DNA of 63,274 bases, counting the filler, from Collodictyon triciliatum (lineage: Eukaryota): assembly GCA_043381765.1 (NCBI GenBank). It is 37 parts of 37 records of this genome, joined end to end, with 100 filler letters (N's around TTAATTAATTAA, not from the genome) between each part and the next. Parts side by side here need not be neighbours in the genome. Positions count along the whole stretch, not along the records: positions 30,894 to 32,505 come from JBHJMP010010619.1; 36 more parts are not named here. The stretch is one strand, 5' to 3'. Below the pieces are notes generated by a model. It worked only from the letters and a program-made list of their open reading frames with translations. It ran no database searches and was not told where the DNA came from. Positions 30,978 through 32,492 of this stretch are shown in pieces (position 1 is the stretch's first letter; every line of letters begins with the position of its first letter). A program made the position numbers and the translations under genes.

Positions 30978-30980
<3 letters not shown>

Positions 30981-32492
30981 CATTAAGGAGCATTTCGTAA
31001 AGAGGCTACTGCGCCTTACAAATCAAACAGTTCCTAAAGATGAGGATATCACGGAAGCTATTAAAAAGGGAGAGTTACGAAAGTTAAAAAAGCTATCTCC
31101 AAAAATCTCGAAATACCAGAGCAATATAAAGGACGGGCTACAACGCATCTGAATCATATCATTCCCAGCGATATTGTAAATGGTATCGAATATGACGTCA
31201 AAGTCAATCCAAATAAGTACATTCCATGTCTGATTTACATGAATCGCATTTTTGAGGATGTTTGGAACCAAACTGTTTCAACCAATCTCTATAAGAACTA
31301 ACAATATACCATGTCATATTACTCTAGATACTGCATATTTGATAGATCTATTAGTATTATCTGGAAAAACATTATTACTGAAGAATATATCAGGATGCAA
31401 AGAGACCCTATGGGATTAGTTCTTTGAAATGAAGAAGAGGGTTTTTCATCAAAGAGACTACAATTTTAAATACATGATACAAACAGACGGCTTGGCAGTG
31501 TCATCATTATTTGAAATGAAGGGTATTTCAAATTCAAAAATCAAAATGTAATAAAAACCTAAGAATGTTTATATATAGATGAATTTTCCGAAAACCAGTT
31601 ATCTTTATTAGCGACAAAAAAAATGTTTGAGTGGACGCAGGCGAGTTTAATTTTGGTTTACATGGTGGATGAGACAGGTAAGAAATTACGTTACACGGCA
31701 CACCAAACAAGACATGATAGAAAATCTCTTGAAAATCACAAAATACTCTTGCACGAGAAAAATAAAGTACAAGGCTTCAGCTATATGCATGGCAACAGGT
31801 TTACAAAGTGCTATTTCTTTTGGCCACATGACTTTTGAAGAGAACCAGCAGTTTGAGACATCAAGAGCATCTTTAATCGATTTAGAGACAGAGCTGATTA
31901 AACATAATTCATGCGCGGTCGATTATGAAAAAATTTTCGAAAATATGTATCTATGAAATCAAGATACCAGATAGAACTATCCATATTTTAGAACAAGTAA
32001 CTTTTCGAAAGATGAGATGGAGACAATATGTTAATACAAAAAGAAGAGAACTGTTGTTTATGGACCGAATCGAAAAGACATTTGGCAAGGATGTTGTACT
32101 GGCGTATGGAGGCTGGAGCAGAAAATCTCAGATGAAATATTTTATGCCAAGAATCGGAAGAGGATTACGAAAAATACTATCCAAACGTTTTGAAACAGTT
32201 AGCGTAGATGAATTTAGACCCTCCAAGATGAGCTGCAACTGCGAAGAAGAACTGGAACATATGACACTGAAAGGAAATACAAAAAGAGTTTTATAGATGT
32301 CTCATATGTAAAGAATGGAATCGCCCAGAAAGCAAACAAAGTATATTCTTGACAAGGGACTTTAACAGCTTTAAAAATATACTCAAGAAAGTTCTTTTAA
32401 TCCTTCAAAAAAAATGCATACACCTCTCTTTTAAAAAACAGGCTGTTGGGTCTTTCCTGGCGACCTTAACCACCACTACACAACCTCTGTGA
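30978..32492 (+). pseudogene. Fanzor1: Fanzor1 (eukaryotic TnpB/Cas12-like RNA-guided RuvC endonuclease), degenerate, N-terminus missing
   Basis: Joined frames: NIKEHFVKRL; YDVKVNPNKY..LIYMN; KLFQPISIRTNNIPCHITLDT; MIQTDGLAVS; RuvC-I (G)VDAG..LVYMVD (D at 31634); FRKMRWRQYVN; LAYGGWSR..QMK..MP..GRGLRK; VDEFRPSK (E at 32210) with SCNC; YRCLICKE; RuvC-III TRDFNSFKNI (D at 32358). Several frameshifts and an in-frame TAG near 31416. Confidence 0.9.

What the first reader, a model, noticed from the sequence alone, without database searches (positions are those of the whole stretch)
30978..32492. Hidden Fanzor1: a eukaryotic RNA-guided (OMEGA) nuclease in this protist
Seen: the ORF track shows only short pieces, but stitching frames gives roughly 500 aa with Fanzor motifs in order (NIKEHF, YDVKxNP, KLFQP..R..IP..I.LDT, QTDG, GVDxG, FRKMxWRQY, YGxWS, GLRK, VDEFRxSK, zinc-finger Cys remnants, RDxNSxxNI). 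All three RuvC acidic residues remain (D31634, E32210, D32358). Known: Gly at the canonical TnpB RuvC-II position with the catalytic Glu moved next to the zinc finger is the Fanzor1 arrangement; Fanzor1 genes ride on eukaryotic DNA transposons and giant viruses. Inference: this copy is dead (frameshifts, stop), but it implies a Fanzor-bearing transposon or endogenised virus in this lineage, possibly with intact siblings, a new TAM and a new carrier element.
Basis: partly seen in the sequence, partly recalled or inferred. Interest (0 to 1): 0.88.

Follow-up and report, generated by a model that had tools for sequence, protein, structure and literature searches.

The report
Decayed Fanzor1 nuclease gene copy

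Summary
Window 30979-32489 (+) reads through as about 500 residues of a Fanzor1 protein. A read-through with X at each break scores E 1.3e-136 against a profile of 51 full-length relatives. One single-frame piece hits solved Parasitella Fanzor1 at 4.5e-10. A profile of relatives hits only Fanzor1 structures significantly (1e-76 to 6e-56).

D31634, E32210 and D32358 align with SpuFz1 D383/E541/D606.

The copy is dead:
- 12 frame-shifting indels, a TAG stop, and a TGA at the motif glycine
- two of four zinc ligands lost
- the first ~144 residues missing behind an (AAT)n run at the contig start

Neither introns nor an alternative genetic code rescue it.

Four public runs hold 12-287 short contigs each, 80-99% alike. 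This is a multi-copy family, and some copies lack this copy's lesions. No intact close sibling was found. The closest intact relative, P0155 from a metagenome, is 59% identical.

The nearest clades sit in Tc1/mariner-type elements on giant-virus contigs.

The window is 37 unlinked contigs, one of them bacterial-type rRNA, so host attribution is unproven. The carrier element, omega-RNA and TAM cannot be read from this contig.

Verdict: a new member of a known kind, of low interest.

The parts
30794..30893 (.). Artificial contig linker (N44 + TTAATTAATTAA + N44). Nothing to the left is physically linked.
30894..30978 (.). (AAT)n microsatellite at the contig start. It abuts the gene at the residue matching position 145 of P0155.
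30979..32489 (+). Decayed Fanzor1 coding remnant, matching residues 145-642 of the 648-aa relative P0155. It carries 12 frame-shifting indels at about 31069-70, 31263, 31549, 31571, 31629-30, 31652, 31767, 31942-43, 31989-90, 32291, 32406-07 and 32432.
31417..31419 (+). In-frame TAG stop
31628..31630 (+). TGA at the glycine position of the G-x-D-x-G RuvC-I motif. One sibling contig reads GGG here.
   Evidence: (loose end of X2 at 31622)
31634..31636 (+). RuvC-I aspartate (GAC), in a D-A-G motif instead of the family's D-P-G
32108..32122 (+). YGGWS motif. Relatives and sibling contigs have YGDWS (32112 G>A in siblings).
32210..32212 (+). RuvC-II glutamate (GAA), six residues before the first zinc-finger position (the 'alternative' Fanzor position)
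32231..32242 (+). First CxxC of the zinc finger, here S-C-N-C. The first Cys is lost; siblings read T at 32231, giving Cys.
32307..32318 (+). Second CxxC, here C-K-E-W. The last Cys is lost; siblings read C at 32318, giving Cys.
32358..32360 (+). RuvC-III aspartate (GAC) in R-D-x-N-S-x-x-N
32490..32492 (+). TGA ending the last frame. Only 13 nt of contig follow, so any omega-RNA scaffold and right end are cut off.
32506..32605 (.). Artificial contig linker

Best explanation
Contig 30894-32505 carries a decayed copy of a Fanzor1 gene. Fanzor1 is the eukaryotic/viral TnpB-like RuvC nuclease that, in characterised members, binds an omega-RNA encoded at its own 3' end and cuts matching double-stranded DNA next to a TAM. 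This copy cannot make a protein: it has 12 frame-shifting indels, at least two stops, two lost zinc ligands, and no N-terminal ~144 residues on this contig. It belongs to a multi-copy repeat family with copies of graded age, and the copies were probably spread by a DNA transposon. The nearest clades for which elements were read ride in 2.7-3.3 kb elements with 31-33 nt inverted ends, and two of these carry a Tc1/mariner-IS630-type DDE transposase. Shown here: homology, catalytic-residue alignment, the lesions, the multi-copy state, and the carrier of the relatives. Inferred: RNA guidance for the intact ancestor, the carrier type for this family, and residence in the protist's nuclear genome.
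For: Homology to Fanzor1:
- A single-frame piece (31898-32293) finds 1128 relatives at E<=1e-3 among 1.84 billion representatives, and solved Parasitella Fanzor1 at 4.5e-10.
- Relative P0002 matches SpuFz1 over its full length at 9.2e-37, PpFz1 at 7e-34 and GtFz1 at 7e-16.
- A 26-sequence profile gives 1.1e-76, 1.6e-72 and 5.6e-56, and nothing else below 0.07.
- The X-joined read-through scores 1.3e-136 against the family HMM.

Catalytic residues: the SpuFz1 metal ligands D383/E541/D606 (PMC10432273, passage) map, through the printed 8gkh alignment (offset 394), onto P0002 and from there onto window D31634, E32210 and D32358.

Lesions: mapped with a frameshift-aware alignment to P0155, 293 of 494 identical. 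Lost invariant residues are listed.

Multi-copy family:
- 103, 287, 139 and 12 contigs in runs X1-X4 are 80-99+% alike.
- Many positions differ from the window in all of them.
- Some contigs lack the extra or missing base at 31259, 31651, 31990 and 32286.
- Three short proteins listed under source NCBI (P0030, P0051, P0157) are 76-79% identical. P0030 and P0051 run out of frame with the family over part of their length.

Carrier of relatives:
- Inverted terminal repeats were found in 6 of 6 nearest loci examined.
- DDE_3 plus HTH transposase was found in 2 of 2 examined.
Against: - No full element, inverted end, target duplication, transposase or omega-RNA is on the contig, so the carrier is inferred from relatives only 45-46% identical.
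- The contig is unlinked to any host gene.
- The sibling contigs are 150-360 bp, so no full-length sibling, intact or not, was seen.
- The RuvC-I motif is D-A-G here and in the one sibling read across it. All 26 aligned relatives and all 50 representatives in which a simple pattern found the motif have D-P-G. That residue is a Fanzor hallmark (PMC10711439).
Confidence: 0.9

Rival explanations
1. The gene is intact, and only looks broken because of sequencing errors at homopolymers, short introns, or a non-standard genetic code.
For: Several shifts lie in or beside A/T runs, for example at 31629-30 after an A8 run, at 31652 in T4, and at 32406-07 in an A run. The assembly is highly fragmented.
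Against: - The breaks are 1-2 nt with the protein alignment continuous across them, so they are not introns.
- Both TAG and TGA stops occur together with 12 shifts, so no single stop reassignment helps.
- Another contig of the window has a 538-residue stop-free frame under the standard code.
- Substitutions remove two zinc ligands and other invariant residues.
- In independent runs a large share of sibling depth carries the window's state at 31259 and 31651, so these are inherited mutations and not private read errors.
Confidence: 0.03
2. The contig does not belong to the protist's nuclear genome. It would come from a contaminant, a prey or co-cultured eukaryote, or a giant virus.
For: The window is a string of unlinked contigs. 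Contig 34319-35928 is a bacterial-type tRNA-Ile/tRNA-Ala/23S rRNA piece. Relatives abound on viral contigs: 277 of 301 matched stretches are relatives.
Against: - The contig starts in an (AAT)n run, like three other contig ends in the window. Simple repeats end 14 of 37 5' ends and 12 of 37 3' ends.
- GC is 0.33, within the range of its neighbours.
- Hundreds of diverged fragments per run fit an old repeat family in a cellular genome better than a virus.
- In the tree, the window plus P0155 form their own lineage outside the viral-rich clades.
Confidence: 0.12
3. The family is the remnant of endogenised giant-virus DNA and not a transposon that spread within the cell's genome.
For: The closest clades with known context are on viral contigs, 26 of the 80 kept loci carrying giant-virus-bin names (the meaning of the GVMAG name is recalled). 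Bao and Jurka proposed spread of Fanzors by viruses (PMC3627910, abstract).
Against: Copy number and graded divergence. There are no viral genes on the contig. Even in the viral contigs the gene sits inside a TIR-bounded transposon. The window lineage is not nested in a viral clade.
Confidence: 0.1

Closest known systems
Fanzor1 of Spizellomyces punctatus (SpuFz1; PDB 8GKH, 9CEU-9CEZ; PMC10432273)
   Same: Homologous over the whole protein through relatives (9.2e-37 for P0002, 1.6e-72 for the family profile). The D-E-D metal ligands align. The glutamate lies six residues before the zinc finger. Size class is ~630-650 aa in intact relatives.
   Different: This copy is a pseudogene lacking its N-terminus. 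It has D-A-G instead of D-P-G and two of four zinc ligands lost. No omega-RNA, inverted repeats or TAM are recoverable. The direct hit of the window piece to SpuFz1 is weak (E 0.07).
Fanzor1 of Parasitella parasitica (PDB 9CF0-9CF3) and Guillardia theta (PDB 9CER-9CET)
   Same: PpFz1 is the best solved match to the window's own sequence (4.5e-10) and to the family profile (1.1e-76). GtFz1 shows the kind is already known in a protist.
   Different: They are distant in sequence and intact. This copy is broken.
Tc1/mariner-type elements carrying Fanzor1 in giant viruses and protists (PGv-1, PUl-1, PUl-4; Bao and Jurka 2013, PMC3627910, section 7 read)
   Same: The nearest clades of relatives (L001, L002, L007, L008, L081, L094) are 2.7-3.3 kb elements with 31-33 nt inverted ends that read TA-CACC...GGTG-TA. 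L001 and L008 have a divergent DDE_3/HTH transposase beside the Fanzor1 gene.
   Different: None of this is on the window's contig, and the relatives' end sequence is absent from the window. These relatives are only 45-46% identical. The carrier of the window's family is therefore inferred.
P0155, an unnamed 648-aa metagenome protein
   Same: Closest intact relative: 293 of 494 aligned residues identical and sister to the window copy with SH-aLRT 100. It has D-P-G and all four cysteines.

Membership tests
Fanzor1 | Significant sequence homology to experimentally characterised Fanzor1 proteins over REC/WED and RuvC regions | tested here: met
   Window piece vs PpFz1 at 4.5e-10. Relatives vs SpuFz1/PpFz1/GtFz1 at 1e-37 to 1e-76. 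Read-through vs family HMM at 1.3e-136, positions 182-646 of 684.
Fanzor1 | RuvC D-E-D triad at the positions of SpuFz1 D383, E541, D606 | tested here: met
   Mapped through the printed 8gkh alignment of P0002, the residue numbers in PMC10432273, and the frameshift-aware alignments. This is a sequence alignment only; no structural superposition of the window copy was made.
Fanzor (1 and 2) | RuvC-II glutamate six residues upstream of the zinc finger (Ealt; PMC10711439) | tested here: met
   E32210, then six residues, then the first zinc-finger position.
Fanzor (1 and 2) | D-P-G motif at RuvC-I (PMC10711439) | tested here: not met
   The window has D-A-G, and one sibling contig also reads D-A-G. 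All 26 of 26 aligned relatives and all 50 representatives in which a simple pattern found the motif have P. This is a lineage or decay variant and does not weigh against homology.
Fanzor/TnpB | C4 zinc finger between RuvC-II and RuvC-III (PMC3627910 motif) | tested here: not met
   Two of four ligands are replaced in this copy, C to S at 32231 and C to W at 32316-18. Sibling contigs carry Cys at both, so the family meets the feature and this copy does not.
Fanzor1 | Open reading frame able to give a full-length protein | tested here: not met
   12 frame-shifting indels, a TAG, a TGA at the motif glycine, and the first ~144 residues absent.
Fanzor1 | Omega-RNA encoded at the 3' end of the gene and RNA-guided, TAM-dependent DNA cleavage | not testable with these tools
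   The contig ends 13 nt after the stop. No Rfam match. The fold of 32340-32505 is no better than shuffles, z -0.57.
Tc1/mariner-type Fanzor1 element | Terminal inverted repeats, TA duplication, DDE transposase | tested here: inconclusive
   Absent from the 1.6-kb contig. Inverted ends are present in all six loci of the nearest relatives that were read, and the transposase in the two of them examined.
Fanzor2 / prokaryotic TnpB / Cas12 | Closer homology to Fanzor2, TnpB or Cas12 than to Fanzor1 | tested here: not met
   No Fanzor2, TnpB or Cas12 chain at E<=1 except LaTranC at 0.07-0.09. Pfam Cas12f1-like_TNB is listed for 9 of 10 relatives but reaches its cut-off in only 3 of 10, and in 0 of 8 window pieces.

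The most novel reading that the evidence does not exclude
The contig is one fossil of a large, partly young Fanzor1 family. Some fragments in public runs are over 99% alike. The family has an unusual D-A-G RuvC-I motif and lives in a microsatellite-rich freshwater protist lineage. Intact, possibly active members, with their own omega-RNA, TAM and carrier element, would remain to be found in that genome.
Probability: 0.3. Interest if true: 0.4.

Novelty: new member of a known kind. Interest (0 to 1): 0.25.

Why it matters
It adds one more lineage to the already long list of Fanzor1-bearing genomes, and it shows that the family was abundant in its carrier. A practical gain (a new compact RNA-guided nuclease with a new TAM) would come only from an intact sibling, which this window does not contain. 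It is also a caution for the scan: windows built from concatenated unplaced contigs give no genomic context, and attribution to a host cannot be taken for granted.

Tried and rejected
- Pfam on the eight single-frame pieces gave no family hit. There were two weak unrelated sub-threshold rows, DUF5958 at 0.01 and GAF_3 at 0.25. The pieces are too short and diverged for Pfam.
- No whole genome is held for the window, so a tblastn of the assembly was not possible.
- Within the window there is no second copy by blastn or tblastx.
- The earlier-findings look-up found nothing for this genome or sequence.
- The first metagenome scan with the single piece gave 204 pattern matches and 0 relatives.
- Alignment A1 was too loose for pattern search. 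The tighter A2 worked.
- No RNA holder was listed among sequencing runs, and no run holds half or more of the stretch's words, the best being 0.18. The source reads themselves were therefore not examined.
- The relatives' inverted-end motif has 0 matches in the window.
- Rfam has 0 matches on the contig at E<=1.
- The RNA fold of the 3' tail is not better than shuffles.
- A FastTree of 107 rows left the window on a long, unresolved branch. Adding P0155 resolved its sister but not its position relative to the viral clades.
- Structure prediction and complex prediction were not run. Sequence matches to solved Fanzor1 were already decisive, and the joined read-through may not be passed to those tools.

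Full report
**What the window is**

The 63,274 bases are not one stretch of genome. They are 37 contigs of 1607-1620 bp, sorted by length and joined by 36 identical artificial linkers (N44, TTAATTAATTAA, N44). The finding lies alone on contig 30894-32505 (1612 bp). Its apparent neighbours are unrelated contigs, and no other contig of the window resembles it by blastn or tblastx. No whole genome is held for the window.

**Checking the observation**

The region shows only short frames under the standard code. Pfam finds nothing in any of eight single-frame pieces.

The longest piece, 31898-32293 (132 aa), finds 1128 relatives at E<=1e-3 among 1.84 billion representative proteins, 229 of them at <=1e-10. 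Many are 600-700 aa long.

I built an HMM from 51 full-length relatives. It hits successive pieces of the contig in colinear order but in changing frames:
- 30946-31110 (E 3.9e-07)
- 31074-31259 (3e-12)
- 31258-31416 (2.2e-15)
- 31420-31542 (2.4e-12)
- 31569-31766 (3.9e-12)
- 31925-32278 (2.3e-47)
- 32283-32447 (4.7e-12)

A read-through made inside a script, with X at each break, scores 1.3e-136 over HMM positions 182-646 of 684.

**What family it is**

- The window's own 132-aa piece matches solved Parasitella parasitica Fanzor1 at 4.5e-10, and Spizellomyces Fanzor1 weakly at 0.07.
- Relative P0002 (634 aa) matches SpuFz1 end to end at 9.2e-37, PpFz1 at 7e-34 and Guillardia theta Fanzor1 at 7e-16, and nothing else at E<=1.
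- A 26-sequence profile gives 1.1e-76, 1.6e-72 and 5.6e-56 for the same three. The next rows (LaTranC, 0.07-0.09) are not significant, and no Fanzor2, TnpB or Cas12 chain appears.
- Pfam's Cas12f1-like_TNB domain is listed for 9 of 10 relatives but reaches its cut-off in only 3 of 10.

The family is Fanzor1.

**Catalytic residues**

PMC10432273 (passage) names E541, D383, N385 and D606 as the metal ligands of SpuFz1. In the printed alignment of P0002 to chain 8gkh_P (tag offset 394), these residues fall on the D of the G-A-D-P-G motif, the E of I-N-E-F-R-T-S-K and the D of T-R-D-L-N-S.

The frameshift-aware alignments place window GAC 31634, GAA 32210 and GAC 32358 on the same columns. The glutamate lies six residues before the first zinc-finger position. 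PMC10711439 (passages) describes this as the 'alternative' glutamate, and as a fingerprint of Fanzors in general, not of Fanzor1 alone. The same paper gives D-P-G at RuvC-I as the second fingerprint. The window has D-A-G.

**State of the copy**

Aligned to the closest intact relative, P0155 (648 aa), the contig covers residues 145-642 with 293 of 494 identical. It needs 12 frame-shifting skips, at about 31069-70, 31263, 31549, 31571, 31629-30, 31652, 31767, 31942-43, 31989-90, 32291, 32406-07 and 32432, and it passes a TAG at 31417-19. With P0002 or P0003 as guide, the glycine of G-x-D-x-G is a TGA at 31628-30.

Invariant residues lost include:
- the proline of D-P-G
- the first cysteine of the first CxxC (now Ser, 32231-33)
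- the threonine of E-F-R-T-S-K (now Pro)
- the nearly invariant last cysteine of the second CxxC (now Trp, 32316-18)

The gene starts abruptly behind 85 bases of (AAT)n at the contig start. The first ~144 residues are therefore missing from this contig, whether truly deleted or lost to an assembly break.

Three ways of rescuing the frame fail:
- The breaks are 1-2 nt with the protein alignment continuous across them, which excludes introns.
- Two kinds of stop plus 12 shifts exclude a stop reassignment.
- Another contig of the window (15464-17079) is stop-free for 538 codons under the standard code.

**Are the lesions real, and are there siblings?**

No public run holds the contig as such; the best share of sampled words is 0.18. 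Laid at 80% likeness, four runs gave 103, 287, 139 and 12 short contigs. These runs are two freshwater metagenomes, one run of a coded organism A, and one unlabelled run. The identity classes (99+/95-99/90-95/under 90) were 12/21/34/36, 38/59/103/87, 11/33/54/41 and 0/1/10/1. That is the picture of a high-copy repeat family of mixed age.

At many places every sibling differs from the window, and in the direction of the family consensus:
- 32231 A>T restores Cys
- 32318 G>C restores Cys
- 32112 G>A gives Y-G-D-W-S
- 32219 C>A gives E-F-R-T-S-K
- 31643 G>A gives G-K-F-N

Some sibling contigs lack the window's extra or missing base at 31259, 31651, 31990 and 32286. A large share of depth shares the window's state at 31259 and 31651, so these shifts are inherited and not read errors. 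One sibling reads G-M-D-A-G-K-F where the window has the TGA, so D-A-G is shared by at least one other copy.

All of these contigs are 150-360 bp, so none shows a whole gene. In the 5.8-billion-protein collection the closest entries are:
- P0156: 223 aa, 72% identical
- P0157, P0030 and P0051: three short proteins whose source is listed as NCBI, 76-79% identical, from contigs of 513-582 bp. P0030 and P0051 run out of frame with the family over part of their length.
- P0155: 648 aa, intact, 66% over the piece

No intact sibling closer than that was found.

**Relatives and their carriers**

A pattern scan of viral contigs matched 301 stretches, of which 277 encode relatives. Of the 80 loci kept, 26 carry giant-virus-bin (GVMAG) names; the meaning of that name is recalled. 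The metagenome scan gave 453 relatives among 599 matched stretches. Most loci hold one open ~600-700-codon frame, with 93 distinct full-length frames among the 160 loci.

In a 32-row IQ-TREE, the window joins P0155 (SH-aLRT 100). The pair forms a separate lineage in an unresolved three-way split with two clades rich in viral contigs. A 107-row FastTree gave the same neighbourhood, with the window on a long branch. The window's end branch (0.48) is longer than that of P0155 (0.26), as expected for a pseudogene.

All six loci of the nearest clade that I examined have 31-33 nt terminal inverted repeats bounding 2743-3330 bp elements. The ends read TA-CACC...GGTG-TA. In the two loci examined further (L001, L008), a divergently oriented 350-362-aa frame carries DDE_3 (1.3e-13, 1.5e-15) and HTH domains. 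This is the Tc1/mariner-with-Fanzor1 arrangement described by Bao and Jurka (PMC3627910, section 7 read). That end sequence is absent from the window.

**What cannot be said**

The contig ends 13 nt after the final stop. No omega-RNA, right end, TAM or target duplication can be read from it. Rfam finds nothing on it, and the 3' tail folds no better than shuffles, z -0.57.

Host attribution is not proven. One contig of the same window (34319-35928) is a bacterial-type tRNA-Ile(GAT)/tRNA-Ala(TGC)/23S rRNA piece, so the unplaced contigs are of mixed origin. Three things favour the same eukaryotic genome:
- the (AAT)n end, which is also seen on three other contig ends
- simple repeats at 14 of 37 5' ends and 12 of 37 3' ends
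- a GC of 0.33

**Comparison with what is known**

- Fanzor1 in 26 eukaryotes of seven groups and 18 large DNA viruses was described in 2013 (PMC3627910, section 5 read).
- Its RNA-guided nuclease activity and structure were shown in 2023 (PMC10432273, passages).
- Its spread across unicellular eukaryotes is described in PMC10530073 (passages).
- Earlier notes of this scan on other genomes reached the same kind of verdict for other decayed Fanzor1 copies.

I could not see the supplementary catalogues of these papers and do not know the window's organism. I therefore cannot say whether this particular lineage is already listed.

**Verdict**

It is a dead copy of a known kind of gene, on a context-free contig. 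It is a new member of a known kind, and of low interest unless an intact sibling turns up.

Noticed in passing
window 1-63274 (linkers e.g. 30794-30893, 32506-32605): The window is 37 contigs of 1607-1620 bp, sorted by length and joined by N44-TTAATTAATTAA-N44 linkers. Any finding that relies on gene neighbourhood across these linkers is void.
   Followed up: yes
window 34678-35963 (contig 34319-35928): A bacterial-type rRNA operon piece: tRNA-Ile(GAT), tRNA-Ala(TGC) and the 5' ~850 positions of a 23S rRNA (LSU_rRNA_bacteria, 476 and 124 bits). This is bacterial or organellar DNA among the unplaced contigs.
   Followed up: partly
window 15464-17079 (+): One contig is a single stop-free frame of 538 codons encoding a cysteine-rich tandem repeat (C-P-x-G-T-F-N ... 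C-x-x-C-x-x-G). I used it only as evidence for the standard genetic code.
   Followed up: no
window 29181-30143 (+): WD40-like repeats (…WLASGS…IRIWD…) continue across a change of frame near 29580-29602. This may be a frameshift or a short intron in a cellular gene of the same assembly.
   Followed up: no
window contig ends throughout (e.g. 30894, 46295-47904 3' end, 54839, 56547): Contigs very often begin or end in simple repeats: 14 of 37 5' ends and 12 of 37 3' ends by a strict test, with (AAT)n or (ATT)n at four ends. The assembly evidently breaks at microsatellites.
   Followed up: partly
window 31634-31642; run X2 loose end at 31622: The RuvC-I motif is D-A-G in this copy and in one sibling. 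All 26 aligned relatives, and all 50 representatives in which a simple pattern found the motif, have D-P-G. This could be a lineage-specific variant or a mutation of an already dead master copy.
   Followed up: partly
run X2 on window 31180-32473 (table 5): Ten single contigs of run X2 join across internal gaps of 80-227 nt. They look like internally deleted derivatives of the same repeat family.
   Followed up: no
L050 9827-11302 and L062 10472-12346: Two viral-contig loci carry a second Fanzor1 frame a few kb downstream of the first. The gene is therefore multi-copy within single giant-virus contigs.
   Followed up: no
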